A DNA stretch of 38,431 nt from a virus: positions 1 to 38,431 of IMG/VR virus record IMGVR_UViG_3300045988_147738; one strand, given 5' to 3'. The notes below the pieces were generated by a model. That model did not search any database. It saw nothing but the letters and a program-made list of their open reading frames with translations, and was not told the origin of the DNA. Shown one piece after another: positions 16,251 to 38,431 of this stretch. The first letter of the stretch is position 1; every line of letters starts with the position of its first letter. A program made the position numbers and the translations under genes.

Positions 16251-16394
16251 TCATTTTTTATTCTCCTTCTTAGGACGACCACGTTTAGGATTTTCGCCCC
16301 ATACAATTTGATGAACTGCTTTAGTAGCATAATAATTAGCTTTTTTCTGCATTTTAGCAGCGAGGGCATTTCCAAAGCTTTTATATTTAGGCAT
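16251..16394 (-). CDS. 47-aa basic peptide (not in the ORF track)
   Basis: MPKYKSFGNALAAKMQKKANYYATKAVHQIVWGENPKRGRPKKENKK. Its start overlaps the stop of the upstream AbrB-like gene (taATGtaatATG). Confidence 0.4.
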   Translation of the reverse strand: MPKYKSFGNALAAKMQKKANYYATKAVHQIVWGENPKRGRPKKENKK

Positions 16395-16395
16395 A

Positions 16396-16713
16396 TTACA
16401 TTACTCCATTAATAGCATCGGTTAATTTTTGAGGAATTTCAATTCCTAAATCATCTAATACTTCTTTAGCACGTAAATACTCTATTCTACTACCATATCG
16501 TTTACTCACTCGCACTCCAACATAAACTTCACCATTATATTCAATAGTATAAAATTCCATACGGTCGCCAGGAGTAATACCATATTTTTGTCTTAAATTT
16601 TTAGGAAAAACAAGACGGCCTAAACTATCAACCTAATGAATAGAACCTTCATTATGAACTATTGCTTGGCCTTCTCGCATTACAATATCAAAATAATTTT
16701 TTCCATCTTCCAT
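16396..16713 (-). CDS. AbrB/MazE-type (SpoVT-AbrB domain) DNA-binding protein with an in-frame TAG at 16633-16635
   Basis: VDSLGRLVFPKNLRQKYGITPGDRMEFY matches the AbrB swapped-hairpin motif (VDELGRVVIPIELRRTLGI...GD.LEIY). GGAGGAG ribosome-binding site. The domain is in frame only if TAG at codon 27 is read through. Confidence 0.55.
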
Positions 16714-16717
16714 AAAA

Positions 16718-17011
16718 TCACTTCTCCTCCATTATATGACATTTTTCTCCAGAAGATTTAATGATATGCCAAATATACTCACCATCATTAATAACTCCTA
16801 AATACTTGTCATTATTATTTACATATTTATCCAGTTCCCAACCTGTGCCAACAGCATTAATTTGAAAATATTTTTTGGGTGCTTTTTCATCATAAACTGC
16901 CCATACGCATGGATTATTATTTACATCTAATCCAGTAGATACAATATCAGTCAGATGATCCATAATATGAGTTGACCCTGGAGTTTCAATTAAATATTTA
17001 TAAATCTTCAT
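16718..17011 (-). CDS. hypothetical protein (97 aa)
   Basis: Intact ORF in the AT-rich region. Confidence 0.45.
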   Translation of the reverse strand: MKIYKYLIETPGSTHIMDHLTDIVSTGLDVNNNPCVWAVYDEKAPKKYFQINAVGTGWELDKYVNNNDKYLGVINDGEYIWHIIKSSGEKCHIMEEK

Positions 17012-17012
17012 A

Positions 17013-17339
17013 TTACTCCTCTTTTAACACTTCTGCCCAAACGCGCACATCTCTATCTTCTGCATTCATTACTCGATTTTTATTATATACAAAAATAGGG
17101 CAATGTAGTGGATAACAATTTAATCGCATAATTTTAATATCAATATTATCTACATAAATAATCATATTATCTTGAACATATGGCCAATAATCTTGACCTT
17201 TACCCAATAGAATACAAGTATATCCTGCTTCAGTTAATTGTTCAAGATTAATATATTGATTAAATGACACACCCATAAATAGAATAGTAGTGCCTCGTTT
17301 AAAATTTTTCAAAATATATTTAATCTATTTTTCAGTCAT
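17013..17339 (-). CDS. hypothetical protein (about 108 aa) with an in-frame TAG at codon 5 (17325-17327)
   Basis: The ATG at 17337-17339 is in frame with the track ORF through the TAG: MTEK-TAG-IKYILKNFKRGTT... Confidence 0.4.
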
Positions 17340-18066: not shown

Positions 18067-18089
18067 AAACGTAAAAAAATCTGGAGGTA

Positions 18090-19152
18090 ATGATGATAAA
18101 ATTAGATTATTCCTTACAAACTCCAGAAGAAAGAAATGAATTAGTCAAGAAAATATTAGAGGAAACCCCAGACCCCTCTCCTCGATATTTAGAAATATTA
18201 GGGGACTATATCATTCTTTGTATGGAGAAACAAGAGAAAAAGGAGCGTAAATTATTAACTGATAATCGTATGGCAACAGTTAATAAACGTGAAACATCTT
18301 TTGAAGGTCTTGTTTCCCAATTTGAGAATGGCGAAGATGGAATTTATAATTTAATTACTGAAAATAAAAATACAATATTTTAGCCTAAAATTACAATTAC
18401 TAAAAAAGATATAGAAGAAATACCTCATTTAAAATAGTTAAGAGACGCCATTACTACTTGGGAAGCCAAATTACGAGTTAGCGAAGGACGCAAGGCATTT
18501 ATAATTAAACGTGCTATTATTGAAATGCGTAAAGATTAGTATGTTATTAAAAATGCAGTTCGTCGTCCAATTGTTATGACTAAAATTACTCGTTCAAGAA
18601 ATTTTATTCCATTAGAGGACACGACTTGCATTTTTGATGATGATGGTTATCCAATCCCGGATGGCGTTTCACTCTTAGACCCTAGAGTATGTTCTGCAAT
18701 TTTATGTAATTATTCTCGTTTAAAACAAGATAGTTGGGGAGATTTTGAAAGAGATTTATGGTATATTATGGAAGATTTCGATAATTTATGTACCATTGCT
18801 CTTAAAGATTACCCTTTATATGATAGAATAGTTGAATATAAAATTGATGGATTATAGAATATAGACATTCAAAAGAAAATTCAAGAGGAATTTAATATTA
18901 CTCATAGTTTAGAATATATTTCTAGTTTATGGCGTAATAAAATTCCAAAATTAATCGCCTCTGCGGCTGAAGACCAATACCTATATGATTATTATTTACA
19001 TAAAGCAAAAGGTAAATATAAAAAATGTAGTCGCTGTGGGCAAATTAAATTAGCACATAATAAATATTTTAGCAAAAATAAAACTAGTAAAGATGGTTAT
19101 TATAGTATTTGTAAAAAATGCCGTAATGCTAAGAACAAGGGCAAACAGTTAT
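18090..19152 (+). CDS. hypothetical protein (about 353 aa) with a C-terminal CxxC...CxxC zinc ribbon; 4 in-frame TAG
   Basis: Track ORFs 18090-18383 and 18576-18857 are in the same frame and are joined by reading through TAG. No TAA or TGA occurs until 19150. Confidence 0.55.
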
Positions 19153-19196
19153 AATTTTGAGATGCCTGTTATTGGATAGATATAAGGAGGAAAATT

Positions 19197-20393
19197 ATGA
19201 CTGTAGATAATGATAAAAAAGTATATTATTGCGAACGATGTAATAGAACTATGGGCGCTGACCAGTTTTATACATCTAATAATTTAGAAAAATATCCAAA
19301 TGATGGAAAACTCTCTCAATGTAAAAAATGTATTACAATGCTTGTAGATAATTGGAATCCAGAAACTTATATGTGGATTCTACAAGAAATTGATGTACCT
19401 TATGTTCCAGATGAGTGGAGTAAATTAATGGTAAAATATGGACAAGATAAATCTAAATTAACTGGTATGAGTATTTTAGGTAGATATTTGTCCAAAATGA
19501 AACTTAAACAATATAGAGATTATCGATGGAAAGATTCTGAGTTTTTATAGGAAGTGGCTAATAATAAATTAGAACAAACTATGAAACGCCAAGGCTATGA
19601 TGCTCAGCAAATAGCAACAGCTATTGCTAAATCTACTGTCGCTATTCCAGAAGAAGAATTAAAACCTTACACTCCTGAATTACCAGAACGTTTTAGAGAT
19701 GGTGATGATTATTTTGATCAATAGAATGGTATTGAACATGACCCAGCAGATGACCTCGATTTAACAGAAGAAGATATTTTATATCTTCGTATGAAGTGGG
19801 GTAAAGCATATAAACCTGAAGAATGGGTTAAACTAGAGCAACTCTATGAAGAAATGATGAGTTCTTACGATATCCGCGGCGCTGGTCATATTGATACATT
19901 AAAATTAATTTGTAAGACATCCTTAAAAGCAAACTAGTTGATCGATATTGGTGATATCGAAGGTTTCCAAAAGATGAGCAAGGTTTATGATAGTCTAATG
20001 AAATCAGGTAATTTCACCGCCGCTCAAAACAAAGCAGATACAGGAGAAGCATTTGATTCTATTGGAGAATTAGTGGCCATGTGTGAAACTGAAGGATTTA
20101 TTCCTCGGTATTATACAGAAGGTCCAAAAGATAAAGTTGATGAAACTTTACAAGATTTAAAGAATTATACACACACATTAGTCACTGAAGAGATGAATCT
20201 AGGTAATCTCATTGAAGGGGCTATTAAGAAAATGCAAGAAGAAGAAAATAAAGAAGAAGACCAAGATATTGAAGAAGATTTAACGATGGAAGAAATCGAT
20301 CATCTTAAAGATGAAGATTTAATTGAATATAATGATTTCCTTGAAGAAGAGTCTGAAATAGACGCTCAGACTTTAAGGAATTTAGAAGGATAA
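19197..20393 (+). CDS. hypothetical protein (about 398 aa, N-terminal CxxC pair, acidic C-terminus), possible small terminase or DNA-binding partner; 3 in-frame TAG
   Basis: Track ORFs 19197-19550 and 19938-20393 share a frame. The in-between sequence has no TAA or TGA. Confidence 0.45.
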
Positions 20394-20394
20394 T

Positions 20395-22128
20395 ATGGCT
20401 TTATAGGATTTACTTGATTTATCTTAGAAGCGTAAAAAGATTGGAATTTCAGAGGACCGTCTTCGTGCGATTATACCAGAAGCAAGATAGTACATAGCCT
20501 TTTGGAGAGAATACCCAGATATGTTTATCGACTTCATGGCAGGACCTGATGGCGGCCCTCAACATTTTAAACTCTATTTTTATTAGAGAATCTTTTTGCG
20601 CGCTGCGATGCGTCATAAATATATTTATGCTGTATTCCCTCGTGCTTATTCAAAATCTTTTTTATCAATGATAGTCTTAATGTGTCGTGCGATTCTATAT
20701 CCTAGATGTAAATTATTTATTACTTCTGGTGGTAAAGAACAAGCGGCTGGAATTGTAAAAGAAAAAGTTCAAGAAATTTGTACTCTTATTCCTGCATTTT
20801 AGAAAGAAATAGATTGGCGTCGTGGTTAGACACTTGAAGGTAAGGATTATGTTAAATATGTATTTAAAAATGGTTCATATTTTGATAATATTGCTGCAAG
20901 AGAATCTTCTCGTGGTAAACGTCGCCATGGTGGTTTAATTGAAGAGTGTGTTGGCGTTGATGGGGATATTTTATCACAAGTTATTATTCCTACAATGAAT
21001 ATTTCTCGTATGTGTATGGATGGTACTACTCAACCTGATGAAACTCTTAATAAATCTCAAATTTATATTACTACTGCTGGATATAAAAATACTTTCCCCT
21101 ATGATAAATTAATCCAATTATTAGTTTGGGAGATTGTTAAACCTTAGCAATCTATTATTATGGGTGGTACTTATCGTATTCCTGTTTTAATGAAATTGTT
21201 AGATGCGAATTTTATTAAAGACTTAAAAATGGACGGAACGTTCAATGAAAGTTCATTTGACCGAGAGTATGAAAGTAAATGGTCTGGCACAGTAGAAGAT
21301 GCATTTTTTAATGCTGAAATATTTGATAGAAATAGAATATTAAATTAGCCTGAATATGAAGCATCCGGGCGTAATTCAAAATTAGCATCTTATGTACTTG
21401 CTGTCGACGTTGGCCGTAAAGGATGCGATTCAGTTATTTGTGTATTTAAAGTAACTCCACAATCACAAGGTGGTTCAATTAAAAGTTTAGTAAATATATA
21501 TACATTATCTGATGAACATTTTGAAGACCAAACTATTAAATTAAAAAAATTATATTATAAATATAATGCTGATAGAATTGTAATTGATGGCAATGGTTTA
21601 GGAATTGGTTTAATTGATTATATGGTTAAAACATAGATTGACCCTGAAACCAATGAAATTTTCCCTGATTTTGGTGTTGTTAATGATGATGATTTATTTT
21701 ATAAAAAATATAAAACATCTAATACAGTATTAGATGCTATGTATATTATAAAAGCTAATGCGCCACTTAATACTGAAGCTCATGCGATTGCTAAATCACA
21801 ACTTGCTTCTGGAAAAGTGAAATTTTTAATTGATGAGCGTGTAGCAAAAAATAAACTTCTTGCTAAAAAGAAAGGTCAAACCATGACTCCAGAATAGAGG
21901 GCAGAAGAATTAAAACCATTTACATTAACTTCCATATTAAAAGAAGAAATGATGAATTTGCGTGAAGAAACTGAAGGAGTAAATATTATCCTGAAGCAAG
22001 CAAATAAAAGTATCCGAAAAGATAAATTTTCTGCTTTTGAATATGGATTATATTATTTAAAATTAGAAGAAGATAAAAAGAAGAAACGTAAAAAGTTTAA
22101 TGCTAAAGATTGGTGTTTCTTGAATTGA
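20395..22128 (+). CDS. terL: terminase large subunit (about 577 aa) with about 10 in-frame TAG
   Basis: ATG at 20395 with a GAAGGA ribosome-binding site. Walker A-like FPRAYSKS and a LIEEC Walker B-like acidic patch. RNaseH-like nuclease region YVLAVDVGRKGCDSVICVF...IVIDGNGLG. Track ORFs 20596-20802 and 21160-21348 fall in the same frame. TGA stop. Confidence 0.7.
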
Positions 22129-22138: not shown

Positions 22139-22495
22139 ATGAGAGCGTCTAGAGGCGAAATTAAAATTGAAGAGATTTTGCGACAAGCTGAATTACCATT
22201 TAAGATGGAATATATTTTTCCAGATTTGAAGGCACCAAGTGGTAGACCCTTACGTTTCGATTTTGTTGTTTTTGATGATGATGGTAGAATTGATTTTATT
22301 ATTGAATATTAGGGTAAATAGCACTATGAGCCTAGCGCAAAATTTGGTGGTAAAAAAGGTTTATATCAACAACAATATAATGATAATCAAAAACGACGTT
22401 TTTGTGCTTTACATGATTTTAAATTAATAGAGATTCCTTATACAGATGAAAATCTTATTACATATGATTATATAATGCAATTAGCTGGATATTAA
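22139..22495 (+). CDS. PD-(D/E)xK (DUF559/Vsr-like) endonuclease-fold protein (118 aa); 2 in-frame TAG
   Basis: RFDFVVFDDDGRIDFIIEY-Q-GKQHY fits the hhhD...hhE.G.QH core. GAGGAGG ribosome-binding site. Confidence 0.4.
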
Positions 22496-22507: not shown

Positions 22508-24169
22508 TTGGATACTAAAGAATTATCACGTTAGGAAATCATCCACTCCAAAGGATTTAATATCAGCAATGGAACAAGTGATTATCGAACTGCTGATCCA
22601 ACAGAATATCGTAAGATAAAAGTCGGGGTTCAAACATTAGATGATGCTGTATTAGATTTAGGGTCATTTGCTCGACTATATCCTAATCGTCGTGGTCCAT
22701 GCCGCATGGTCACTAAAAATGATGTATTACGAGCTATGATAAATCGTGATATTGTTGAAATGCGTAGAATTTCTAATTTATTTTATGATATTAGCGGCAT
22801 TTATGAGCGAGTATGTAATTATTTTGCTTATTTGTATAGATATGATTGGTATGTCGCTCCAGAGATTTTAGATGATACGGTAAAAGATGAAAAAGTTTTA
22901 AAAGATTTTTCAAAGTTATTAAATTATTTAGATAATACTTATATTAAAAAAATCTGCGGTGATATTGCTCAAAGTATTATGAAAAATGGTTGTTATTATG
23001 GATATATAGTACAATCTGCAAATAGTTTAATGTTACAAGAATTGCCTGCTAGTTATTGTCGTTCTAGATATTTTGTGGCTGGTATGCCAGCGATTGAGTT
23101 TGATATGCGGTTTTTTGATTAGTTTCCAGACCCTAATTATCGTATGCGCGTATTAAAATTATTTCCTGAAGAATTTTAGCGTGGATATGTTTTATATAAG
23201 AAAGGAAAATTACTTCCTGATATTAAGGGAGATTATAGTGGAAGTTGGTATTTACTATCTCCAGAATTAAGTGTGAAATTTAATTTTAATGGTAGCGATA
23301 CTCCACCATTTATTAATTCTATTCCTGCTCTTATGGATTTAGATGCTGCTCAAGATTTAGACCGCAGAAAACAAATGTAGAAGTTGTTAAAAATTATTGT
23401 TCAAAAACTTCCTATGGATAAAAATGGTGATTTAATATTTGATATTGATGAATCTCGTGATATACATAATAATGCTGTTGCTATGTTATCAAGAGCCATT
23501 GGCGTTGATGTTTTAACAACATTTACTGATGTTCAATCTATTGATTTATCAGATAAAAATACTACAACTACTACAGATGATTTAGCAAAAGTTGAACGTA
23601 CTGTTTATAATAATTTAGGTATTTCTCAAAATCTATTCAATACTGATGGTAATTTATCATTAGAGAAGTCTATTCTTAATGATGAATCAACTGTTAGAAA
23701 CTTGTTGTTGCAATTTAACATTTTTTTTGATAGAATAGTAAAGATGAAAGTTGCGAACAATAAGAAATATAGTTTTAAATTTTATATGCTTGAAACTACA
23801 CAATATAATTATAAAGAAATGTCAAAATTATATAAAGAACAAACGCAACTTGGTTATTCTAAGATGCTACCTCAAATTGCTCTTGGTCACTCTTAGAGTT
23901 TTATTTTAAATACTGCGGTGTTTGAAAATGATGTGTTGAAATTAACTGAAATTATGATCCCACCATTAATGTCTTCTACTATGAGTAGTCAAGATGTTTT
24001 GGGTAATAAAGGTTCAAACAATTAGAATAAAACACAAAATAATCCAGGAAGTAGTAATCAATAGACTACTACAAAACAGACTACTGAAACAAAATAGTCT
24101 GGGCGACCTGAAAAGGCTGATGATTAGAAAAGTGAAAAAACCATAAAAAATAAAGAGTCAATGAATTAA
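22508..24169 (+). CDS. putative portal protein (about 553 aa) with about 9 in-frame TAG
   Basis: Size and position directly after terL. Track ORFs 22706-23122 and 23384-23896 share a frame. TTG start with an AAGGAGG ribosome-binding site. Only TAG interrupts the frame. Confidence 0.5.
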
Positions 24170-24180: not shown

Positions 24181-25773
24181 ATGAAGCATCAAAGTATTAA
24201 ACTTGAAACGCCTTGTGAATTTATTAATGTAACTCCTATTAATCCTTTGATTTCTAAATGCCAAATTAAAGTTTGCTACGTTGGGGATGAACCAAATCGC
24301 AATCGAAGCATTATTTCTAAAGAAACTGCAAGGGAGATGGCTAATAGTCTCCCTGGCAGTCCTATTGTTGGTTTTTACAATGAATCTAATGGAGATTTTG
24401 AGGAACACAATAGAATTATTGATATTTCAAATGGAAAGTTTGAAATGAAAGATACTACTAAACCTTATGGTTTTGTAGATTTAGGTGCCAAGGTTTGGTT
24501 TTAGAAATTTTTAGATGATGGCGTTAATGAACATGAATATCTTATGACTGAAGGATATTTATGGACCGGCCAATATCCAGAATGTAAGCGCATCATTGAG
24601 CAAGGCAATAATCATTCTATGGAGCTCGATGAAGGTACTTTAGATGGAACTTGGACGAAAGATAATAATGGAAAGCCGTAGTTTTTCATTATTAATGAAG
24701 CAATTATTTCTAAACTTTGTATTTTAGGAGAAGAGTGTGAACCTTGCTTCGAAGGCTCCTCTATTACAAAGTTTTCTCTTTCATTTGATGATAGTTTTAA
24801 AAATGAACTATACTCAATGATGAATGAACTAAAAGAATTATTAAAAGAAGGAGGAGCAAAAGTGTTTAATAGATATGCCGTAGAAATCGGAGATTCTCTA
24901 TGGAGTGCTTTATGGGAATATGTAAATAAGGCTTTCCCTGATGGCTCTAACAATTATTGCTCTAAATATCGTATTGATGGCGTTTTTGAAGATAATAGTC
25001 AGAAATTTGCTATTCTTCAAGACCGCGGCGATATGAAATATTATCGTTTAAACTTTTCTTTGAATGATTCTGATGGTCTTGTTCCTGGCGAAGGTTTAAT
25101 TGAAGTAACTAAATCTTATACTCCAGCAGCAGAGCCTCAGTTTGCTTTGGACGCGGTTGAAGCATATGAAACCGAGTTTAAGAAAAAGCAAGAAGAAGAC
25201 GAAGAAAATAAAAAGACAAATGATAATAAGGGCGATAATTCTGGCGACCCTGAGAACAAAAAAGATGATGGTTCTTCTAAAAATAATGGTCAAAAGTCAG
25301 AAAATGAAGATGACGATCCTTCAGAAGATGATGAGGATAAAAAGAAAAAGAAAAAGTATTCCTTGGATGAAATTGAAGAATATGTTAGCTTAAAGGCAGA
25401 ATATGAAGAGTTGCAAAATAAATTTAGTTTATTAGAGGCTGAAAATAAAACTCTAAGCGAAACTAATACTTCTTTGACTGAGTTTAAGAATAGTATTGAG
25501 CGCAAGGACAAAGAAGCTATGATTCAATCATTCTATATGCTGTCTGATGATGATAAGAAAGATGTTATTGATAACATTGATAAATATTCTGTTGATGATA
25601 TTGAAGCAAAACTTTCTGTTATTTGTGTTCGCAACAAGGTTAATTTTAATCTTGATGATGATAATAATGATAAAGGCCCAACTACCTATAATTTAAGCAA
25701 TTTAGATGATGACAGAGATGCTGGAATGCCAGCTTGGGTCAAGGCTGTTTTAGAATCAGCCAATAAAAACTAA
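24181..25773 (+). CDS. prohead protease (U35/S78-like N-terminal domain) fused to a scaffold-like acidic coiled-coil region (about 530 aa); 2 in-frame TAG
   Basis: N-terminal CYVGDEPNRNRSII...GSPIVGFYNESNGDFEEHN resembles the HK97-family prohead protease. The C-terminal half is a D/E/K-rich low-complexity coiled coil. Track ORFs 24181-24504 and 24817-25773 share a frame. Confidence 0.5.
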
Positions 25774-26727: not shown

Positions 26728-26744
26728 GAAAGGAGAGAAGAATA

Positions 26745-27851: not shown

Positions 27852-27867
27852 TTAAAACCTTAATATA

Positions 27868-27918: not shown

Positions 27919-27939
27919 AGAGAAAAAGGAGATAATAAA

Positions 27940-28548: not shown

Positions 28549-29136
28549 ATGGGAACTAAATTCACTGATATTTATAATCGCTTCCTTGGGAAAATTACTG
28601 ATGACCTTTATATTGAATTAACTCCAGAAGATACAATTAAAGATTTACGTGCAATACTTTTAAATATTTTACCTGAATTTGAATTTCCTAGATTTGATAT
28701 TTATGATTATACTATTGATTAGGAAATTAAATATGAAGATGAAATATTAGAAGATGATTTTGTAATTGGTCTTTTGTGGGAAGATGAAATAGATGAAGAA
28801 TCAGAAATCCGCCCTCCTCGTGTAATGGTAGAGCATTCATCTTTTGGAGCTGAATTAACACCGGAGGAAATTAATATTTTAGCTATATTGATGATGGTGA
28901 ATTGGGTACAACGCCAAGTCACTTCTATTGAACACACTCGTATGAAATATAGTGGTTCAGATTTTAAAATGACTTCATAGGCTAATCATTTACAAAAATT
29001 GATGTCTTTATTAAGTGAATGTTAGAGACAATCATTCCATATGCAACGTTTATATAAACGTCGTAAATTAGTAGAAGGGAAATATGAATCCAATTGGGGC
29101 GTATTTCATTATAAGAATTATCCTTATGATAACTAA
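28549..29136 (+). CDS. putative head-tail connector (gp6-like) protein (about 195 aa); 3 in-frame TAG
   Basis: ATG at 28549 with an AGGAGG ribosome-binding site. Track ORF 28774-28980 lies in the same frame. TAA at 29134. Confidence 0.4.
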
Positions 29137-29425
29137 ATATCATACAGATATTTCTGATGAAGTCATGGAGAAAAATATAGTAAGATTAACTAATCAACTG
29201 TGGAAATTAATCCCTATGAGAGAAAATGAAGAAGATTGGGATAAACAATTAAATACAGTTATTATTGAAATTGCGGGCTTAAATGAAATTTTTATTTAGG
29301 ACCCGCGATTTTTATAGTTGCTTAGTAAATTAGAAGGGCTAAATGTTTTAAATGATATTGAGTTCTCAATTTATAGAAAAACTGTATTTGAATGTATTAG
29401 TTTATTATAGGAGATTAAAAAGTAA
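29084..29425 (+). CDS. hypothetical protein (about 113 aa) overlapping the previous gene; 3 in-frame TAG
   Basis: Track ORF 29084-29299 extends to the TAA at 29423 when TAG is read through. An alternative start ATG lies at 29126. Confidence 0.35.
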
Positions 29426-30579
29426 TGCCAAAACGTCCAGAAAAGATGGAAAAATTATTGCCTTATGGTTTAAATACTAATAAAAGTGTAAATCTTGTAG
29501 GGGCTCGTTTAGGTGATACAAGTATAAAAATTCCTTAGCCAGATTCAGTTGATGGTAGTTTAGATATGGCTAAAAGATTAATGAGTGCGGGTGGTTTTGC
29601 CCAACAGTAGCGAATGATCAAAGATAAACGACATTCGTTAGATCAAGCCACTAAGTATTCTTATTAGGCGGCTTGGGTGCGTAAATGTGCGGCTACAGAG
29701 GTAGAAACTAAAAAAGAAAAAAATATTTTACCTCCTGTTCGAGCATTAATGAATCCTAATAAATTAAAATAGGATTATGATGATAAAGTTATTTCAATTG
29801 GATTTGAACATAAATTTAATTGTGGAGATGTATTTGAATGGTGTAATACTGGAACTTATTGGTTAATTTATTTATAGGATTTAGATGAATTAGCTTATTT
29901 CCGTGGGGACGTTCGTAGATGTACTTATCAAATTCCATTTATGATGGATGATGAATTAAATGTAGTTTATGTGGCTAATCGAGGTCCAGTAGAAACTAAA
30001 ATTGATTATATTCAAAAACATACTACTAGTGTAGATAATCCAAATTATTCTTTAAATTTATTAATTCCTAAAAATGAAAAAACTTTGAAATTTTTTAAAC
30101 GGTATTAGAAGTTTTATATTTGGCCGGAAGACGGTTCAGTTTATGATACTTGCTGGAGAGTTGAAGCTGTAAATAATATTAGTATGACTGGCGTTATTGA
30201 AGTAAATGCTGTTGAATATTATGCTAATGAATTTACAGATGATCGAGATGCAGGATTAGCTGATGTATTTAAAATACCAGATCCAATATTAAAACGTAAA
30301 ATTATAGATGATAATAAAGATAATAATAAAATTTTAAATATAGTTGGTGAAACCTTTATTAAGCCTAAAAAAGAATATGATTTTAATTTAAATATTAAAA
30401 ATGTTCGAGGAACTTGGAAAATTGAAGGCAATGATGTCCCTATTCGAATTATTAGTGAAGGGACTAATGATAAAGGATTTTCAACAATTAGACTTAAATG
30501 GGACTCTACTTATAGTGGTTAGTTTGATTTAGTATATGGAACTAGTCGAAAAACTATAGTAGTAGAATCATTGTTCTAA
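29425..30579 (+). CDS. structural protein (about 384 aa); 7 in-frame TAG
   Basis: ATG overlaps the upstream stop (taATGcca). Frame verified codon by codon through to track ORF 30184-30522. TAA at 30577. Confidence 0.45.
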
Positions 30580-30601
30580 TGAGTAAAAGGAGATTGAAAA
30601 C

Positions 30602-31204
30602 ATGAGAATAGACGGATATCATATTCCAAAATCAAGTTTTCTATCTATGGAAAAAGATACTGGGATTATTATTAATGAAATATTAAAAAATAATCGTTTA
30701 AAAAAATTATTATATTATACTACTAGTGATGCTATGGAAAAACCTAATCTTACTGAAGATTAGTCTTTAAGTTTACTAGGAACTAATATTAAAATAGTGC
30801 CTAAATTATATGTTGATGGTTCTGTTTTAAATTATGTATTAATTAATTTCGATAATTTTACTCCCAGTGAAAATCCAGAGTTTAGAGATAATACTATTCA
30901 ATTTGATATTGTATGTCATTTTGACCAATGGAATTTAAGAGATTATGCATTACGCCCATATAAGATTGCCGGAGAAATTGATTCAATGTTTAATTTGAAA
31001 AAATTAACTGGTATTGGTTATTTAGAATTTATGGGTGCTACTTAGATTGTCTTAACTGATGAATTTGCTGGGTTATGTTTGATGTATCGCACTGTCCATG
31101 GCGGCGAAGATGAAAAATATATGCCAACTTATCCTGATAAAAATAGCGGCAAAATTAAAGAGGAACAATTTATTAAAGAATTTAAGGATTACATTAGTAA
31201 ATAA
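30602..31204 (+). CDS. putative neck or tail-completion protein (about 200 aa); 2 in-frame TAG
   Basis: AAAGGAGA ribosome-binding site. Track ORF 30797-31045 lies in frame. Confidence 0.4.
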
Positions 31205-31932
31205 TGGATTACCGCTTAAATTTAATTTGCGGAACTGATATGTTGATTCCTGAATGTAATTTAGTCGCTCATCAACCAAGGATAAAAGAAATTTCATTTA
31301 TTGGGGAATCTGATTTTTTTATTGGAGCATAGACCCTCTGTTTACATAAAACAATGTTTATAGAGGACAAAACTATTCTAGACAGTATCAATAATTTTTA
31401 GATATTTATGACGATAATGTTATAGGATGAAACAAAGGATAAAAAAGCTAACATTTTAAATGTTTTAAATTTATTATTTCCATCATATAAAATAAATGTG
31501 ACACCAAACTCATTATTATTTATAAAGGAAGGTGTTCCTCCTATTACTGTAGATGGAAATAATTTTGAAGCATTACAAGAAGTGTTGCGTTTAATCTTTT
31601 GTATGCACAATGGCCCGATGGATTAGTAGGCTTTCAATCCTGCCAACGATAAGGCTCGTGAGATTGCTCAAAAGCTAATGCGAGGGAGACAGCGAGTTGC
31701 CGCCCAAAATGGTAATTCGAATGTAAGTGTTTTTAGTTAGTATATGTCAATCTTGACTATTGGATTAGGTTCAATGTCATTATAGGATTTGACAAATCTG
31801 ACAATGTTCCAATTATATGATTTAATGGAGAGATATACGCTATATACTGCTTGGGACCTGGATGTGCGCTAGCGTTTAGCTGGCGGTAAACCTGAAGGGA
31901 CCCCGGATAATTGGATGAAAAACATTCATTAA
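31204..31932 (+). CDS. hypothetical structural protein (about 242 aa); 8 in-frame TAG including a TAG-TAG doublet
   Basis: Start overlaps the upstream stop (TAATGG). Frame verified line by line with no TAA or TGA. Invisible in the standard-code track. Confidence 0.4.
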
Positions 31933-31959: not shown

Positions 31960-33039
31960 ATGAAATTCGGTGTCCGCGAAATTTGTGATGTTGTATTAAA
32001 GGCTAAGTCAGCACAGAAAATTGGTAATAAGATATTCTATGCTGGTGAACCTGTTATTTATTTTGACACCCTAAAAACTTCTAGTTTAGAAGGTGCTGCT
32101 ACCACTGTATATGCACAAGGTGGTCGTGGTAACTCTCGTTTGGTAGCATGGGAAGGTGAAAGAACTCTAACCTTCACTATGGAGGATGCTTTAATTTCTC
32201 CTGAAGGATTTATGATTCTTTCCGGTGCTGGCCTAATTGCTGCTAATGCAGATAAGCCAATTTATCAGCATATGACTGAAACTGTTGATGCTAGCGATTC
32301 TTTACGTTTTAAGTTTGATGCTGCTGGATTTAAGTTCGCTGTTTATACTGAAAATAAGCCTTATCTACCTGCTAATGCTGGTGATAACTTCGCTTATGTA
32401 ATGTTTATGAAGAATGGTGAAATTACTACTGAGCCTTATATTCCTGTTCATGAGGGTGATGATACAACTATTGATAATGAGGCTATGCCTGAGACTGTAA
32501 CTGATGTAGATGGTAAAACTTATTATCGTGTAGCTGTTATGGATCATAAAATGTATGTTGGTTTGGCTTCTTACGAGGATGAGCAAAATGGGGGCCATAA
32601 GTATACTCCAGAAAGTGGAGATAATACTGCTTATGATGTAGTTACTCTACCAAATCGTCTAAAGTTCGATTCTGTGTTAGTTGATTATTACACTGAGCGT
32701 AAGTCTGGCGCTACTCAGATGGAAATTACTGCTGATAAGTTTGGTGGTAACTATTATCTTGAGGCTTCTACTCTATTCCGTGATACTAATGGTGTAGATA
32801 TGCCTGCTGAGTTTATTATTCCTAACTGCAAGATTCAGTCTAACTTCACCTTTACTATGGCTTCTTCTGGTGATCCAAGTACATTTACTTTCACCTTAGA
32901 CGCATTCCCTGATTATACTCGTTTCGATCATAGTAAGAAAGTTCTGGCTGCAATTCAAGTAATTGAATATCTGGATAATGAGGATTTACATCGTCATAGC
33001 ACAGTTCACCAGAAATCTCACGATAGTTATAATTGGTAA
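31960..33039 (+). CDS. putative major tail protein (359 aa); no TAG
   Basis: Intact ORF with an AAGGAGG ribosome-binding site, followed by a terminator. Its position before the chaperone and tape-measure genes matches a siphovirus tail module. Confidence 0.45.
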   Translation: MKFGVREICDVVLKAKSAQKIGNKIFYAGEPVIYFDTLKTSSLEGAATTVYAQGGRGNSRLVAWEGERTLTFTMEDALISPEGFMILSGAGLIAANADKPIYQHMTETVDASDSLRFKFDAAGFKFAVYTENKPYLPANAGDNFAYVMFMKNGEITTEPYIPVHEGDDTTIDNEAMPETVTDVDGKTYYRVAVMDHKMYVGLASYEDEQNGGHKYTPESGDNTAYDVVTLPNRLKFDSVLVDYYTERKSGATQMEITADKFGGNYYLEASTLFRDTNGVDMPAEFIIPNCKIQSNFTFTMASSGDPSTFTFTLDAFPDYTRFDHSKKVLAAIQVIEYLDNEDLHRHSTVHQKSHDSYNW

Positions 33040-33107: not shown

Positions 33108-34199
33108 ATGGTTAATCAAGAAGGTATAGTTTTTGGAGGATATTTTTTATATAAAGAAGAATTTAAAAAGATCTTTCAAGAATTTTGGAATAGTGAATTA
33201 AAAAATATTTTTATTGAAAAAATATAGACTATAATTAAAAATTATTTAACTGAGGTAAATGGTAATATATTAGCAGTAAAAAATCCAAAAGCATTATATA
33301 ATTCTTGGGAATAGATTAATACTGAAGTATTTGGAAATACTCCAGTTTCTTTATTAGGTATTTTAAAATGGGATAAAAAATATCATTATACTTTTGTTAA
33401 TAAAGAATCTGATTTAATAAATAGCTATACTTCTCAGAAAATACAAGTTAATAAGACATTAATAGAAAAATATCGAACAACTTTAAATACAATATATTAG
33501 AGTGATATTGAAATGGCTTTAGAAGCACATTTTAATGATATGAAAAAATCAATTGATAAAGTAAAATTAACTAAGGTGGAAGGGCATGACGTACATTTAA
33601 CTTTAGGTAAATATTATAAAAATACAGAATGGTATAAACGAATTCAAGATACACATATGACTAATAAGAGTTTATCTGAAATATTTTATAAGAAAAATAA
33701 AGTAGCTGCTCAAGGATAGATGTATGATGCTTTTATTAATCATATTAGTCGAAAACATGTGGAATATTTAAGAGCTTTAAATAATTTAGACAGTCCAATA
33801 GAACTTTCTCCATTTGACAAATCAGTTTATAATGAAGAAGGACGATGGAATTTTATCCAATTAGTTATGGACTCTTTGAATTCAACGGCTTGGTATCGCG
33901 GAGGTGATGCTATTGCGGCGGATAGCAGAACTCGTCAAGTATTATTTAATATTTAGGTAAAATCAGGTAAAAAAGGACGTAGTTGGGATATTGCTAGTAT
34001 TTAGTTTTTAACCTTTATTAATAATTTAAATTCCTATTTAAATAAAACGGGAGAGGAAATAGCTGTTTTTTTATATGAAAATTTAAAAATTACTATGGCG
34101 ACATCTGTTGATAGTAAAAAAATTGATAAAGATTTAGAAAAAGAAATTTTAGATAATGTAAGAAAAAATTTAAAATTATCTGGGTTGACAATAAACTAA
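33108..34199 (+). CDS. hypothetical protein (about 363 aa); 6 in-frame TAG
   Basis: Track ORFs 33513-33719 and 33720-33956 are joined in frame. Frame verified with no TAA or TGA until 34197. Confidence 0.45.
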
Positions 34200-34242
34200 A
34201 TTTTTAGTATAATATAAATAAGTGTAAAAGGAGGATTTTGAA

Positions 34243-34767
34243 ATGGCAAAAGTAACATTTTCAAAGTTAAGTTTAAGTAAAAATACAGAAGTATCAACCT
34301 TTGAATGGGGAGACTAGATTATTGAAGTCAAAGATTATCTTCCTATTGGAGATAAGTTAAATCTTATTTCAGAAATTATTAATGATTCCATTGATAAAAA
34401 CGGTTATTATAACCCTGCCCGTGTATATCTTCATACTATTTTAAAAATGATTATGGCATATACAAATATAAGTTTTACTGACAAGCAAAAAGAAGACCCA
34501 AAGAAATTATATGATTTAGTAGTAGGTTCTGGTTTTTCCGCTAAGGTATTTGGAGAAATTAATCCAGGAGAATATGCACAAATTAAAAGTTGGGTAGCAG
34601 AAACTATTCATTCAATTTATGAGTATAAAAATTCTGCGGCGGGTATTTTAGATATTATTTCAACCGATTATAAAGATACAACATTTGATATGGAACAATT
34701 AACTAATGATATTCAGAATCCTGAAACATTAGGATTACTAAAAGATGTTTTGACCAAGTTGGGATAA
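34243..34767 (+). CDS. putative tail assembly chaperone (about 174 aa); 1 in-frame TAG
   Basis: AAAGGAGG ribosome-binding site. Lies immediately upstream of the tape-measure gene. Track ORF 34447-34767 is in frame. Confidence 0.4.
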
Positions 34768-34814
34768 TTAAACTATTTAATTTTTTAAAATTAAATAGGA
34801 ATAATCAAGTGTAT

Positions 34815-34853
34815 GGGTGTGAGAAGATTATTTCTCACACCCATTTTTTTTGT
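34815..34853 (+). terminator. intrinsic terminator or attenuator before the tape-measure gene
   Basis: GGGTGTGAGAAgattatTTCTCACACCC followed by ATTTTTTTT. Confidence 0.6.
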
Positions 34854-34882
34854 TTATATTATGAGAGAAAGGAGTCCCGTTT

Positions 34883-37800
34883 ATGGCAAAACAATTAAAT
34901 GTTGCATTAGATTTTACTGCGAATACTACTCAAGCGAAATAGCAGATTTAGGAATTGCAGTAGTTATTAACTAAAGTAGCATATAGTACTGATTTAGGTA
35001 TTGATCCCAGTCAAATGAAAGCAGCTTCTGCTGCGGCTAAAGAGCTAGCTATTCATTTAAATGAAGCATATAATTAGAAAACTGGTAATTATGATTTAAG
35101 TAAATTAAATGCTAGTTTAGCTAAATCAAAAACTAATGTGACTGAATTATCTACCAGTTTACTTCAAGCGGGAACAACTGGACAACAAGCATTTATAAAA
35201 TTAGCTCAATCAATAGCGGCGGCTGATTAGCCAATGATTACATTAAATGCTCGTTTACAAGATTTTTTAACTACTGTTAAAAATACAGTTAAATGGCAAA
35301 TTTCTTCAAGTATGATTCATGGTGTAATGGGGGCTTTGCAAGGAGCTTATCATTACGCTTAGAATTTAAATAGTTCATTAAATGATATCCGAATTGTTAC
35401 TGGTCATAATATTGACTATATGGATAAATTTGCTGATAGAGCAAATAAAGCAGCAAAGGCATTAAGCACTTCTACATTAAATTATACTGATGCTTCTTTG
35501 ATTTACTATCAACAGGGTTTATCAGATAAAGAAGTAGAAGATAGAACTGCGGTCACAATTAAAATGGCTAATGCTGCTGGCGAAAGCGCAGATAAGATAT
35601 CAGATCAATTAACTGCTGTCTGGAATAACTTCTATGATGGATCATAGTCATTAGAATATTATGCTGATGTTATGACTGCATTAGGTGCAGCTACTGCATC
35701 AAGCACAGATGAAATTGCGGCTGGATTAGAAAAATTCGCGGCTGTGTCTAATACAGTAGGTTTAAGTTATGAGTACGCTACTTCTGCTTTAGCAACTGTT
35801 ACTGCAACAACTCGTCAATCTGCTGATGTAGTTGGTACTGCATTTAAAACATTATTTGCTCGTATTCAAGATTTAGAGTTAGGTAAAACTCTTGATGATG
35901 GTACTACATTAGGCAAATATTCTCAAGCTCTTGAAACTGTTGGTGTTTCTATTAAAACAGCAGACGGCGAGTTGCGAGAGATGGATGATATTCTTGATGA
36001 TTTAGGTGAAAAATGGAATTCATTTGACGCTGAAGGGAATCCATTAATTTCTAAAGATGCTAAAGTGGCATTAGCTCAAACTGTTGCTGGTGTTCGTCAA
36101 TATACACAATTAATGGCATTAATGGATAAATGGGATTTTATGAAAGAAAATCTCGAAACTGCTCGTAATGCTACTGGAACATTAACTGAACAATAGAAAA
36201 TTTATGAAGAATCTTGGGAAGCCGCTAATAAGCGTTTACAAGCTTCATTCCAAGCTTTATACACCGATTTAATTGATGATAAATTTTTTATTAAATTTAC
36301 AGATTTTTTATCTGATATGGTTGATGGTGTTGATTCTTTTATTGATAAAATTGGTGGAATTAAACCTTTATTATTAGGATTTTTATCATTAATTGGTTAG
36401 ACATTAAGCTCTAAAATTTAGCCGGCTTTAGATAATGTAATAAATAATATTCAAATTTTAGTAGGTGGAGCAGATAAAGTTTATGCTAAAATATCTAAAG
36501 AAACTTCTGATAATATCAAACTATAGTTAGAAGCAAGAACTAATTTTACTCCAGCTCAAGAGTAGGAATTAAAAAATTCTTAGGAATTATTAGGAGTAAA
36601 AAATAAATTAGCAACAGTGTCTGAAAATTTATCTGTTAGTGAAAAAAGATATTATGAAAATGAAATTCAATTTATTGAAAAACAATAGTAGGAAACAGTA
36701 AAATTAATTAAATTACGAGAACAATTAAATAAAGATACTAATCCTATTGATTTAAATGCTCCTAATCAAATTTATGATTATGGTACTAGTTATTTACAAA
36801 AATTAAAAGCTAATAAAGATAAAGCTTAGTAGTCATATCGTAATAATCCATCTGAAAGTAATTAGGCAGATTTAGTTGCTGCTAGAAATGATTTAGTTTT
36901 TTTCTAGAATGATAAATTAGATGTTCAGGAATAGGCAGCGTCTCAATTAGCACAAACAGTTGAAAAATTAACAAATGCTTATAAAACTTTTATTGAAGTT
37001 GGGCATGAAACAAATGAAACTTTATTATCAGGAAATGATTTATACTCTTTAACAATTGAAGGACTTAAAAAATTAGGGACTCAGTATACTAAATTAAATG
37101 GTGAAATTGATTTTGAAACGGTTCGAACTTCTATTGATATGCTTATTGGTCCAGTAGATGAAGTAACAAAATCTTCAAAAGATTTTCAAAATGCTTTAGA
37201 AGCTATTGAAAGTGCATTAGATGGAGGAAAGCCAAAAGAAGTAAGTTAGGCTTTTAAATAGTTGGCAGAAGTTCTAAAAAATACTACTGTTGAAGGAAAA
37301 AATGCGGCTAATGCTTTAGAACAAATGGGTCGTTCAACAAGTAAATCAATGAAATAGGCTAAAGGTGATATTTAGGCGCATGGTAAAGCATTAAAATAGT
37401 GGGGATAGGCTACTAAAGAAGCAAAAGAGGCACAAGAAGGACTCAATCAAGCAGTTATTAATTTTAAACCAGTTCATAAAATACCTTTTACTTAGAGTTT
37501 AATATCATTGGCTTCTGCTTGTGGTTCTGCCGCGATGACATTGCAATCATTTAATTCTATGATGCAAACATTATCTGATCCTGATATTTCTGAATGGGAA
37601 AAATTTACATCTGTTTTATTTAGTATTTCTATGATTGTTCCTGGGGTGTCTAGTGTTTTACGAGGATTAGGTACTGCTAATGCCTTTTTACAACAATAGT
37701 CTTAGAAACAATTTCTTACACTTTCTTTAGAAAATGTAGCGATAGAGGCTAATACAATAATATTAACTCAGAATCAAAAAAAGAAAATAGATAATATATT

Positions 37801-38431
37801 AGCTAGTAAAAAATTAAATGATGCTTTTAAAAAGAATGCTATACAAGCAGTTTTAGCTGCAGGAGGAGTGGTTACTGAAACTACAGCGTTGCAAGCTGAA
37901 GCTATTGTAGCAGGAAAGGCGACGGTAACAACCAATGCTTTTTCTACAGCTTTAAAAGGTTTATGGTTAAATATTGCTCCAGTTTTAGCCACTATTTGGC
38001 CTTTAATTATAGCTTTAGGAGCTTTGGTAGCGGCTTGGGCGATATATAATAATGCTACTGGGGCAGCAGCTGAAAACGCGGAATAGAATAATAAAAATTT
38101 AGAAGAAACTAAAACTGCTTTAGATGATGTAAATAGTAGATTAAATACATTAAATAGTACTTTATCTGGTTTAAATGATAAACGTAAAAATATTGACAAT
38201 CTTACTTATGGAACTGTAGAATGGCGAGATGCTGTTAATGAGTTAAATGATGAAGTTGATGATTTAATTGAAAAATATGGTTTAATAAAAGGATAGGATT
38301 GGGATATTGATGCTCAAGGGCGTAAGTATATTACAGATACTGGCGCGGAGACTATGCGTACTTCAATGGATGAAGAACGTTCTAATTTATTATCAGCAAA
38401 AGCTGCTCAATAGAAATTTAAAGATAAATAT
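34883..38431 (+). CDS. tail tape-measure protein, partial (at least 1183 aa, runs off the window end), with about 33 in-frame TAG
   Basis: Track ORFs 35420, 35672, 37508 and 37868 are all in one frame (position mod 3 = 2). TP901-type tape-measure-like region ALGAATASSTDEIAAGLEKFAAVSNTVGLSYEYATSALA. Hydrophobic segment LAPVLATIWPLIIALGALVAAWAIY. No TAA or TGA across 3.5 kb. GAAAGGAG ribosome-binding site. Confidence 0.7.

What the first reader, a model, noticed from the sequence alone, without database searches (positions are those of the whole stretch)
16251..38431. TAG is a sense codon throughout the late/structural module
In the standard code every late gene except the capsid and major tail genes is fragmented. 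Each becomes a single continuous frame when TAG is read through: terminase 10 TAGs, portal 9, tape-measure about 33, about 90 in all. Conserved domains lie on both sides of TAG codons, and every recoded gene ends in TAA or TGA, never TAG. Across 3.5 kb of the tape-measure gene there is no TAA or TGA at all, so these are not pseudogenes. By analogy with known TAG-recoded phages the reassignment is probably to glutamine. No suppressor tRNA with a CUA anticodon, release-factor gene or Gln-tRNA synthetase gene was found in this window.
Basis: partly seen in the sequence, partly recalled or inferred. Interest (0 to 1): 0.9.

Follow-up and report, generated by a model that had tools for sequence, protein, structure and literature searches.

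The report
Gut phage reads TAG as glutamine
The late (virion-building) genes of this very common ~198-kb human-gut phage use the stop codon TAG as a glutamine codon, a known trick of gut phages, here paired with an unusually sharp split in base composition between early and late genes.

Summary
From 16251 to the window end, genes are intact only if TAG is read through: 92 in-frame TAGs in 14 of 18 plus-strand late genes, no in-frame TAA/TGA, and 0 of 48 gene ends use TAG. ORFs of 100 aa or more cover 40% of the arm under code 11 and 95% under code 15.

TAG means glutamine. In standard-code relatives, including cultured Enterococcus phage EF1, Gln aligns with 55% of TAG columns. That equals the 56% at CAA/CAG columns, against a 4% background. 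Among 18 other assemblies of the same phage, TAG swaps mainly with CAG/CAA.

This is a new member of a known kind: an SPbeta-like relative of the code-15 phage phAss-1.

Three things go beyond the finding:
- TAG use tracks composition exactly. Genes with GC3 of 0.46-0.88 have no TAG; genes with GC3 of 0.11-0.32 hold all 95.
- The GC-rich arm carries 20 perfect TTGACA-N17-TATAAT promoters.
- A palindrome array sits at the boundary between the arms.

No tRNA(CUA) was found in about 77 kb scanned. The phage's tRNA array was reached, but it runs off the last retrievable locus.

The parts
16251..38431 (.). AT-rich (GC about 0.30, GC3 0.11-0.32) arm in which TAG is a sense codon. It runs on past the window end.
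   Evidence: 94 in-frame TAGs, no in-frame TAA/TGA; ORF coverage 40% under code 11 and 95% under code 15.
18090..19154 (+). First late gene g1. It matches PHROG 5767, annotated 'sigma factor', and has a C-terminal zinc ribbon. It has 4 TAGs, the first at codon 98. A perfect TTGACA-N17-TATAAT promoter lies at 18036-18064.
   Evidence: There is no Pfam, NCBIfam or PDB support for the sigma assignment.
19197..20393 (+). YonG-like protein, 3 TAGs.
   Evidence: PF27269 YonG_N.
20395..22128 (+). Terminase large subunit, 10 TAGs, the first at codon 4.
   Evidence: The PHROG matches are split into an N-terminal family (15503) and a C-terminal family (24618).
22139..22495 (+). Homing-endonuclease-like gene between terminase and portal, 2 TAGs.
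   Evidence: phrog_9084, phrog_559.
22508..24169 (+). Portal protein, 9 TAGs, the first at codon 9.
   Evidence: (phrog_2739, E=2.5e-79).
24181..25773 (+). YonD-like head protein, 2 TAGs.
   Evidence: PF27290.
25792..28527 (+). Three TAG-free late genes, including the YonB-type major capsid gene 26745-27851. GC3 is higher in the first two (0.32, 0.32) than in most late genes, and 0.15 in the third.
28549..31932 (+). Five head-tail and virion genes (YomW- and YomV-like among them), with 3, 3, 7, 2 and 8 TAGs.
31960..33039 (+). YomU-type tail tube gene, TAG-free.
33108..34767 (+). Two genes upstream of the tape-measure gene, with 6 and 1 TAGs.
34883..38431 (+). Tape-measure gene, first 1183 codons of about 2765. 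It has 32 TAGs and no TAA or TGA.
   Evidence: (PF10145; 2756-2784 aa in other contigs).
16396..17339 (-). AT-rich minus-strand genes. The AbrB/MazE-like gene 16396-16713 and 17013-17339 each have 1 TAG; 16718-17011 has none.
1..14806 (-). GC-rich early arm: 25 small genes with GC3 of 0.46-0.88, no TAG in frame or as a stop. It reads the same under code 11 and code 15.
1984..2535 (-). AT-rich (GC 0.22) HNH endonuclease gene with one in-frame TAG, an island inside the GC-rich arm.
   Evidence: (PF13392).
14022..15703 (.). Nine copies of the palindrome ATTGTTAAAnTTTTAACAAT in the gene-poor zone between the two arms. A weaker tenth copy lies outside this span at 17973-17992.
   Evidence: 19 strand-matches against 0.16 expected.

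Best explanation
The window is positions 5367-43797 of a complete ~198-kb genome of an uncultured, very prevalent human-gut siphophage of the SPbeta-like lineage that includes phAss-1.

Shown: its late genes, and a few mobile endonuclease genes, are written in genetic code 15, where TAG means glutamine. TAG makes up 31% of Gln codons in those genes. The GC-rich early arm avoids TAG completely, in frame and as a stop, so it gives the same proteins before and after the code change. That arm also carries many perfect sigma-A-type promoters.

Inferred: during infection a tRNA with anticodon CUA, charged with Gln, competes with release factor 1 and lets ribosomes read the late mRNAs. Until then translation stops at codon 4 of terminase, codon 9 of portal, codon 20 of the tape-measure protein and codon 98 of g1, the sigma-factor-like first late gene, which has a consensus host-type promoter. 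The code change would therefore act as a translational gate on virion assembly.

The major capsid and tube genes carry no TAG. The likely reason is that suppression is too inefficient for the most abundantly made proteins. The suppressor tRNA itself was not located.
For: Frames and stop codons:
- The frames stay open across 92 TAGs, and the tape-measure frame has no TAA or TGA in 1189 codons.
- No gene ends in TAG, 0 of 48.
- Coding density rises from 40% to 95% with code 15.

Gln identity:
- Gln aligns with 198 of 362 TAG columns in seven relatives. Five of them have no in-frame stop in about 4400 aligned codons each, including Enterococcus phage EF1. That is the same rate as at CAA/CAG columns.
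- In the TerL codon table, CAA/CAG occupy the conserved TAG columns.
- Strain polymorphism links TAG with CAG/CAA in 15 of 22 alternative codons at window TAG sites and 28 of 35 in the reverse direction.

Not a chimera: the window is 100% identical to ENA ERZ28661994 scaffold_15, and the junction between the arms is present in at least 10 other assemblies.

Family placement:
- The capsid is 50% identical to phAss-1, which is filed under 'Caudoviricetes code 15 clade'. phAss-1 was described with TAG->Gln and three tRNA-Sup-CTA genes (PMC10607447).
- The collection's precomputed Pfam hits list YonG/YonD/YonB/YomW/YomV/YomU families for the late genes.
- A relative with 78% TerL identity and 5 TAGs in TerL carries a tRNA(CUA).

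Early/late split:
- 20 perfect promoters lie in 1-19000, 14 of them on the minus strand, and one directly before g1.
- Literature describes TAG recoding confined to late genes, dual-coded early blocks, and a TAG-free capsid gene in one amber-recoded crAss-like phage (bioRxiv 10.1101/2021.08.26.457843, 10.1101/2022.06.29.495998 and 10.64898/2026.08.21.746148).
Against: - No tRNA(CUA), release-factor gene or aminoacyl-tRNA synthetase gene was found in about 77 kb of this phage that could be read: the window plus about 38 kb to its left.
- Two pattern scans for the suppressor type seen in relatives, one of which ran to completion, hit none of this phage's seven IMG/VR contigs.
- The eight tRNAs seen in the phage's array have other anticodons.
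- The timing labels ('early', 'late') are inferred from gene content and promoters, not from expression data.
- The sigma-factor label for g1 rests on one PHROG annotation only.
- The host and its genetic code are unknown. Relatives are binned with Clostridia and other Bacillota MAGs, and such binning is weak evidence.
Confidence: 0.9

Rival explanations
1. The late module is a decaying prophage or a set of pseudogenes, and the TAGs are inactivating nonsense mutations.
For: Under the standard code, 14 of 18 late genes are broken.
Against: - Only one of the three stop codons accumulates. About 418 TAA/TGA would be expected in 6620 codons of non-coding sequence of this composition; none is seen.
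- Protein similarity to relatives continues across every TAG.
- 74 of 92 TAGs are invariant in up to 18 other assemblies, and the changes that do occur are mostly to Gln codons.
- The phage is found on thousands of contigs, with complete-size contigs of 197-201 kb.
Confidence: 0.01
2. The TAGs, or the joining of a GC-rich arm to an AT-rich arm, are artefacts of assembly (errors or a chimera of two genomes).
For: GC drops from about 0.48 to about 0.30 near 16 kb. Several contigs begin close to that point.
Against: - The same junction is spanned at 97-98% identity in at least 10 independent assemblies from different studies, including contigs where it lies mid-contig.
- AT-rich, TAG-containing genes also occur as islands inside the GC-rich arm.
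- Further left, GC-rich and AT-rich recoded blocks alternate on the same contigs.
Confidence: 0.01
3. TAG is decoded as an amino acid other than glutamine, for example pyrrolysine, serine or leucine. Relatives carry a 90-nt tRNA(CUA) with a long extra arm, a shape typical of Ser, Leu and Tyr tRNAs.
For: - ARAGORN labels the CUA tRNAs 'Pyl' by default.
- The suppressor of relative L113 and one of the three in phAss-1 have a long variable arm. By textbook knowledge, seryl- and leucyl-tRNA synthetases do not read the anticodon.
Against: - Residues opposite TAG in standard-code relatives are Gln at the same rate as opposite true Gln codons. Ser, Leu, Lys and Tyr models fit far worse (log-likelihood -668 for Gln against -1167 or lower).
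- Strain-level exchange is with CAG and CAA. CAA is two substitutions away from TAG, as expected for synonymous drift through CAG.
- The long-arm tRNA was not found in this phage.
Confidence: 0.04
4. The phage encodes no suppressor. It relies on a host tRNA, on weak RF1 activity, or on a host that itself reads TAG as Gln.
For: - No tRNA(CUA) was found in about 77 kb scanned, and pattern scans missed this phage.
- Some recoded phages are reported without suppressor tRNA genes (PMC10607447).
Against: - About 120 kb of the genome could not be read, and the tRNA array was only partly seen.
- Relatives carry tRNA(CUA).
- The early arm has 0 TAG against 77 CAA/CAG codons. That fits a host in which TAG is still a stop, although strong GC3 bias alone would also lower TAG use.
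Confidence: 0.2

Closest known systems
phAss-1 and the proposed Phassvirus group (Babkin et al. 2023, PMC10607447; GenBank OQ749652)
   Same: - Human-gut, SPbeta-related siphophage.
- TAG->Gln in terminase, portal, tape-measure and other late genes.
- It is the best full-genome match for the capsid, at 50% identity.
- It has many tRNA genes.
   Different: - The genome is 136 kb against about 198 kb here.
- There is no nucleotide-level similarity.
- Gene order differs, and the early arm shares almost no genes.
- phAss-1 has three tRNA(CUA) genes, and none has been located here.
- A compositional split was not reported for phAss-1.
Stop-codon-recoded gut phage clades (crAss-like, Lak, Jade, Sapphire, Agate, Garnet, Amethyst; Ivanova 2014; Borges et al., bioRxiv 10.1101/2021.08.26.457843)
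   Same: - Code 15 is confined to structural/late genes of phages infecting standard-code hosts.
- Genomes have low GC.
- Recoding is patchy among close relatives.
- The proposed role is to gate late translation.
- Genome size is in the range given for the large Jade/Sapphire/Agate clades.
   Different: - Membership of any named clade was not tested.
- A code-change module (suppressor tRNA, synthetase, release factor) next to the lysis genes was not seen, because the lysis region could not be read.
Dual-coded early blocks or 'soft switch' (Pfennig, Lomsadze, Borodovsky; bioRxiv 10.1101/2022.06.29.495998)
   Same: The early block gives identical proteins under code 11 and code 15. Here that is 25 genes with no TAG in frame or as a stop.
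   Different: Here the dual-coded and recoded blocks also differ by about 18 GC points and have non-overlapping GC3 ranges. A term search of that paper's main text finds no mention of GC content.
Standard-code relatives: Enterococcus phages EF1/EF5/H1/VRE9 and IMG/VR relatives such as 3300043105_000140
   Same: Same late-gene order and homologous proteins: capsid 41% identical, TerL about 80% identical for the IMG/VR relatives.
   Different: They have no in-frame TAG in about 4400 aligned late codons, and only a small early-late GC gap of 0.01-0.05.

Membership tests
Genetic code 15 (TAG->Gln) recoded phage | Conserved genes are interrupted only by TAG and are intact when TAG is read through. 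| tested here: met
   92 TAGs in 14 late genes with no in-frame TAA/TGA; ORF coverage 40% rising to 95%.
Genetic code 15 (TAG->Gln) recoded phage | TAG columns align with glutamine in homologs that use the standard code. | tested here: met
   198 of 362 columns (55%) are Gln, against 56% at CAA/CAG columns and a 4.1% background. See also the TerL codon table.
Genetic code 15 (TAG->Gln) recoded phage | TAG is not used to end genes. | tested here: met
   0 of 48 stops are TAG in the window. The genes checked in L420 also end in TAA or TGA.
Genetic code 15 (TAG->Gln) recoded phage | Recoding is concentrated in late (structural or lysis) genes, with early genes free of it. | tested here: met
   25 promoter-rich early genes have 0 TAG, and structural genes hold 92.
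Genetic code 15 (TAG->Gln) recoded phage | The phage encodes a suppressor tRNA with anticodon CUA. This is common in the group but not universal. | tested here: inconclusive
   None was found in about 77 kb of about 198 kb. The tRNA array is only partly seen. Pattern scans for the relatives' type were negative.
Genetic code 15 (TAG->Gln) recoded phage | Gln is incorporated at TAG in the proteins themselves. | not testable with these tools
   This needs metaproteomics, as was done for crAss-like phages (PMC9523058, listed).
Phassvirus genus (phAss-1, ctckW2, ct6IQ4) | Over 80% nucleotide identity and shared synteny with phAss-1, with a genome of 133-138 kb. | tested here: not met
   There is no megablast match, capsid identity is 50%, contigs are 197-201 kb, and the arrangement differs.
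SPbeta-like late operon | An ordered set of YonG, terminase, portal, YonD, YonB capsid, YomW, YomV, YomU tube and tape-measure genes. | tested here: met
   The collection's precomputed Pfam families PF27269, PF27290, PF27364, PF27256, PF27211, PF27173 and PF10145 are listed for these genes in this order. PHROG portal and terminase hits agree.

The most novel reading that the evidence does not exclude
The code change is one part of a wider switch between two translation regimes written into the genome.

- Early genes are driven by consensus host promoters. They are GC3-rich (0.46-0.88) and TAG-free.
- Late genes and mobile endonuclease genes are AT3-rich (GC3 0.11-0.32) and use TAG for Gln.
- The two classes have non-overlapping codon usage.
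- Across 17 lineages of this terminase family, the early-late GC gap rises with the density of in-frame TAG (Spearman 0.65).

This would mean that recoding evolves together with a phage-driven change of the decoding machinery, for example its own tRNA array, and is not an isolated stop-codon trick.
Probability: 0.3. Interest if true: 0.65.

Novelty: new member of a known kind. Interest (0 to 1): 0.4.

Why it matters
Reading TAG as glutamine in late phage genes is established, so the finding itself adds only a member.

- This member is very common. It is nevertheless absent from the GenBank phage collection searched. Standard-code annotation shatters its genes, and the PHROG terminase families it matches are themselves N- and C-terminal fragments.
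- It also offers a clean natural system for two questions: how a code switch is wired into the infection programme, and whether codon usage and code change co-evolve. It has a TAG-free early arm with consensus promoters, a TAG-laden late arm whose first gene has a host-type promoter, and close relatives with and without recoding.

Tried and rejected
Other codes for the GC-rich arm: TGA-sense, TAA-sense and single-stop codes do not resolve it. It holds small standard-code genes on the minus strand.

rRNA or other RNA genes as the cause of the ORF-poor left half: Rfam found none.

Hunt for the suppressor tRNA:
- ARAGORN on the window, on 60 family loci around TerL, and on four successive steps to the left.
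- Three pattern scans built from the phAss-1 and L113 suppressors.
- Synteny anchors: the phAss-1 NrdD gene, the radical-SAM gene next to the L113 suppressor, and a gene beside the tRNA array of L341. NrdD had no match in L113, and the other two returned none of this phage's contigs.
- A tape-measure search meant to jump rightwards returned only fragments.
- Proteins with in-frame TAG could not be used for contig look-ups.
The tRNA array was reached only at the edge of L423.

Host identification through GTDB genomes gave only distant relatives in MAG bins, mostly Bacillota.

The sigma-factor identity of g1 could not be confirmed with Pfam, NCBIfam or PDB sequences.

Classing family lineages by TAG count in TerL alone misclassified some lineages: L188 and L190 (no TAG in TerL but TAGs in other late genes) and L174 (the reverse). 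The test was redone with all aligned late codons.

Full report
**1. Observation**

The window has two compositional halves. GC is 0.42-0.50 up to about 16 kb and 0.26-0.40 after that. Stop-to-stop maps show that the plus strand from 18090 to the window end forms 18 contiguous genes only when TAG is read through.

- The in-frame TAG counts are 4, 3, 10 (terminase), 2, 9 (portal), 2, 0, 0 (capsid), 0, 3, 3, 7, 2, 8, 0 (tube), 6, 1 and 32 (tape-measure, truncated by the window end). The total is 92.
- Two AT-rich minus-strand genes (16396-16713 and 17013-17339) and an AT-rich HNH gene at 1984-2535 add three more.
- No gene contains an in-frame TAA or TGA. From base composition, about 418 would be expected in 6620 non-coding codons. 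An open frame of 1189 codons, as in the tape-measure gene, has P of about 2e-34.
- All 48 complete genes end in TAA (37) or TGA (11).
- ORFs of 100 aa or more cover 40% of 16251-38431 under code 11 and 95% under code 15.

Four late genes lack TAG, not two. The recoded zone includes minus-strand genes, which explains the start coordinate of 16251.

**2. Not an artefact**

The window is 100% identical to ENA ERZ28661994 scaffold_15 (199,522 bp), positions 5367-43797.

- The exact capsid protein is indexed in 95 blocks of the assembly collection.
The 120 listed are 97-98% identical, which means at most six substitutions outside the 10 masked TAG positions.
- The longest contigs cluster at 197-201 kb with different start points, as expected for a complete circularly assembled genome.
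- The junction between the GC-rich and AT-rich arms is spanned at 97-98% identity in at least 10 other assemblies.
- 74 of the 92 TAG sites are TAG in every one of up to 18 other assemblies.

**3. Which amino acid**

Three independent lines point to glutamine.

- *Strain polymorphism.* At window TAG sites the alternative codons are CAG (8 sites) and CAA (7), out of 22 alternatives. Conversely, window codons that are TAG in another strain are CAA (16) and CAG (12), out of 35.
- *TerL family.* Codons were read directly from DNA in 62 IMG/VR relatives with 67-100% TerL identity. The conserved TAG columns (1, 4, 8, 9) are CAA/CAG in lineages that have no TAG at all.
- *All late proteins against relatives.* tblastn of all 18 late proteins against seven relatives aligned Gln with 198 of 362 TAG columns (55%). 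Five of these relatives, including cultured Enterococcus phage EF1, have no stop in about 4400 aligned codons each. The rate at the window's own CAA/CAG columns is 56% (n=880), and background Gln is 4.1%. The log-likelihood of the TAG-column residues is -668 under the Gln substitution profile and -1167 under the next best, Lys.

In addition, the base following in-frame TAG is distributed like that after CAA/CAG (chi-square p=0.81). True stops are mostly followed by T.

**4. What the phage is**

PHROG matches identify portal, terminase, homing endonuclease and virion proteins. The assembly collection's precomputed Pfam hits list, in order, YonG_N, YonD_N, YonB, YomW, YomV_2nd, YomU_Tube and PhageMin_Tail, which is an SPbeta-type late operon.

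The best full-genome match for the capsid is phAss-1 at 50% identity. A 12-kb unannotated fragment, MT836163, scores 58%. Next come Enterococcus phages EF1, EF5, H1 and VRE9 at 41%.

phAss-1 is filed under 'Caudoviricetes code 15 clade'. It was described with TAG->Gln in 41 ORFs and three tRNA-Sup-CTA genes, within a monophyletic SPbeta-related group in which only some members are recoded (PMC10607447).

There is no nucleotide-level match to any GenBank phage, so this phage is not a Phassvirus. Relatives in GTDB sit in MAG bins, mostly Bacillota and several of them Clostridia, which is only a weak hint at the host.

**5. How it most likely works**

*Shown.*
- The GC-rich arm (1-14806) holds 25 small minus-strand genes with no TAG in frame or as a stop.
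- The first 19 kb contain 20 perfect TTGACA-N17-TATAAT sites, most with an extended -10 TG, and 14 of them are on the minus strand. All promoter-like sites number 94, against 41.7 +/- 6.3 in shuffles. Many terminator-like hairpins are also present.
- One perfect promoter (18036-18064) lies directly upstream of g1 (18090). g1 matches PHROG 5767, annotated 'sigma factor', and contains four TAGs.
- First TAGs fall at codon 4 of terminase, 9 of portal and 20 of the tape-measure gene.

*Inferred.*
- Early genes are transcribed by host RNA polymerase and translated with the unmodified apparatus.
- Late mRNAs can be completed only once a Gln-accepting tRNA(CUA) competes with release factor 1.
- Capsid and tube genes avoid TAG because suppression would limit the most abundant products.

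This matches published proposals for recoded phages (bioRxiv 10.1101/2021.08.26.457843). It also matches the 'dual-coded early block' description (bioRxiv 10.1101/2022.06.29.495998) and a report of a TAG-free capsid gene in an amber-recoded crAss-like phage (bioRxiv 10.64898/2026.08.21.746148).

The sigma label for g1 has no support from Pfam, NCBIfam or PDB sequences.

**6. The suppressor tRNA**

None lies in the window. I walked about 38 kb leftwards through loci L235, L269, L420 and L423.

- The arm continues as GC-rich TAG-free genes interrupted by AT-rich TAG-containing endonuclease-like genes.
- It then enters an AT-rich (GC 0.22-0.29) recoded operon that includes radical-SAM-type genes (six genes, 3-8 TAGs each).
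- Finally it reaches a tRNA array. Eight tRNAs are seen: Trp-CCA, Phe-GAA, Asn-GTT, Leu-TAG, Ala-TGC, Thr-GGT, Leu-CAA and Glu-CTC. The array runs off the end of the last locus I could fetch.

A relative with 78% TerL identity and 5 TAGs in TerL carries a 90-nt tRNA(CUA) with a long extra arm, like one of the phAss-1 suppressors. Scans for that type found 15, 58 and 119 IMG/VR loci, but none on this phage's seven contigs. Whether this phage encodes a suppressor remains open, because about 120 kb were not read.

**7. The compositional split**

TAG use follows composition without exception. Genes with GC3 of 0.46-0.88 (25 genes, 2802 codons, 77 CAA/CAG) have 0 TAG. Genes with GC3 of 0.11-0.32 (24 genes, 7275 codons, 211 CAA/CAG) have 95 TAG. 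The Spearman correlation between GC3 and TAG density is -0.73.

Two of the four TAG-free late genes, the capsid gene and its upstream neighbour 25792-26727, have the highest GC3 of the late class (0.32 each). The tube gene is at 0.24 and 27940-28527 at 0.15.

Across 17 dereplicated lineages of the terminase family, the early-late GC gap rises with the number of in-frame TAGs per 1000 aligned late codons. Spearman is 0.65 (p=0.005). The mean gap is 0.071 in 10 recoded lineages and 0.029 in 7 standard-code lineages (Mann-Whitney p=0.025). The lineages are not phylogenetically independent (a cruder version is).

Term searches of three papers on recoded phages turned up no report of such a within-genome split. 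Early/late codon-usage differences in phages are known in general (PMC5683454, seen).

Possible readings are adaptation of early genes to the host tRNA pool with late genes relying on phage tRNAs, or different histories of the two arms. The early arm is highly variable between strains and shares almost no genes with relatives.

**8. Verdict**

The phenomenon and the phage lineage are already described, so this is a new member of a known kind. The compositional split, the promoter-dense dual-coded arm and the boundary palindromes are the parts worth following up.

Noticed in passing
window 1-16250 versus 16251-38431: There is an abrupt compositional split: GC about 0.45-0.50 against about 0.30. 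Per-gene GC3 ranges do not overlap (0.46-0.88 against 0.11-0.32), and they coincide exactly with the absence or presence of in-frame TAG. Recoded relatives tend to have a larger early-late GC gap than standard-code relatives.
   Followed up: partly
window 1-19000: There are 20 perfect TTGACA-N17-TATAAT promoters, most with an extended -10 TG. Fourteen are on the minus strand, in front of small genes that are often followed by terminator hairpins. One at 18036-18064(+) lies just before the first late gene.
   Followed up: partly
window 14022-15703 and 17973-17992: Nine copies of the 20-bp palindrome ATTGTTAAAnTTTTAACAAT (0.16 matches expected) lie in the gene-poor zone between the two arms. A weaker copy lies in the divergent promoter region. 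An AbrB/MazE-like gene sits next to the array at 16396-16713(-). The array may be operators for a regulator or origin iterons.
   Followed up: partly
window 1984-2535(-); L235 11435-13016; L420 5350-6243 and 11607-12500: AT-rich genes with in-frame TAGs sit as islands inside the GC-rich, TAG-free arm. Of the islands, only window 1984-2535 (HNH) and L420 11607-12500 look like homing endonucleases. The latter shares its C-terminal motif with g4 (window 22139-22495).
   Followed up: partly
L423 10001-20823 (about 28-38 kb left of the window start): An AT-rich (GC 0.22-0.29) operon of six genes, with radical-SAM-type motifs in at least two, has 3-8 TAGs per gene. It is followed by an array of at least eight tRNA genes that runs off the locus end. 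No CUA anticodon is among those seen.
   Followed up: partly
L113 7777-7866; L023 3443-3533(-); L321 9078-9167(-); L341 3369-3458(-); L376 1688-1777: Relatives and other gut or rumen phages carry a 90-nt tRNA(CUA) with a long extra arm. In L113 and phAss-1 the arm contains CUCUGAAG, on an otherwise Gln-like body. 58 IMG/VR loci match the motif. A long extra arm is unusual for a Gln-type tRNA.
   Followed up: partly
L269 17656-19146 (about 17-18 kb left of the window start): A 496-502 aa protein of unknown function is hypervariable. A search returned 4059 matches at E<=1e-20; the 120 listed are 81-95% identical, and many sit on contigs of about 2.5 kb, as if assemblies break there.
   Followed up: no
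window 20395-22128: The terminase matches two separate PHROG families, one N-terminal (15503) and one C-terminal (24618). Many TerL cluster representatives are fragments. This suggests that reference databases hold standard-code fragments of recoded terminases.
   Followed up: no
window 1-79 (L236 10539-10629): 2.5 perfect tandem copies of a 36-nt AT-rich unit lie in the intergenic stretch at the left edge of the window.
   Followed up: no
window 11637-12358(-): Three consecutive 76-codon genes of equal length in the early arm look like tandem paralogs. Copy number varies between strains.
   Followed up: no
L269, L235, L268 (several positions, e.g. L269 10293-10353, 13174-13229, 15436-15496): A repeated intergenic element of about 50 bp in the early arm is shared at 85-93% identity with unrelated phage contigs that carry tRNA(CUA). 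It is probably a promoter-containing unit.
   Followed up: no
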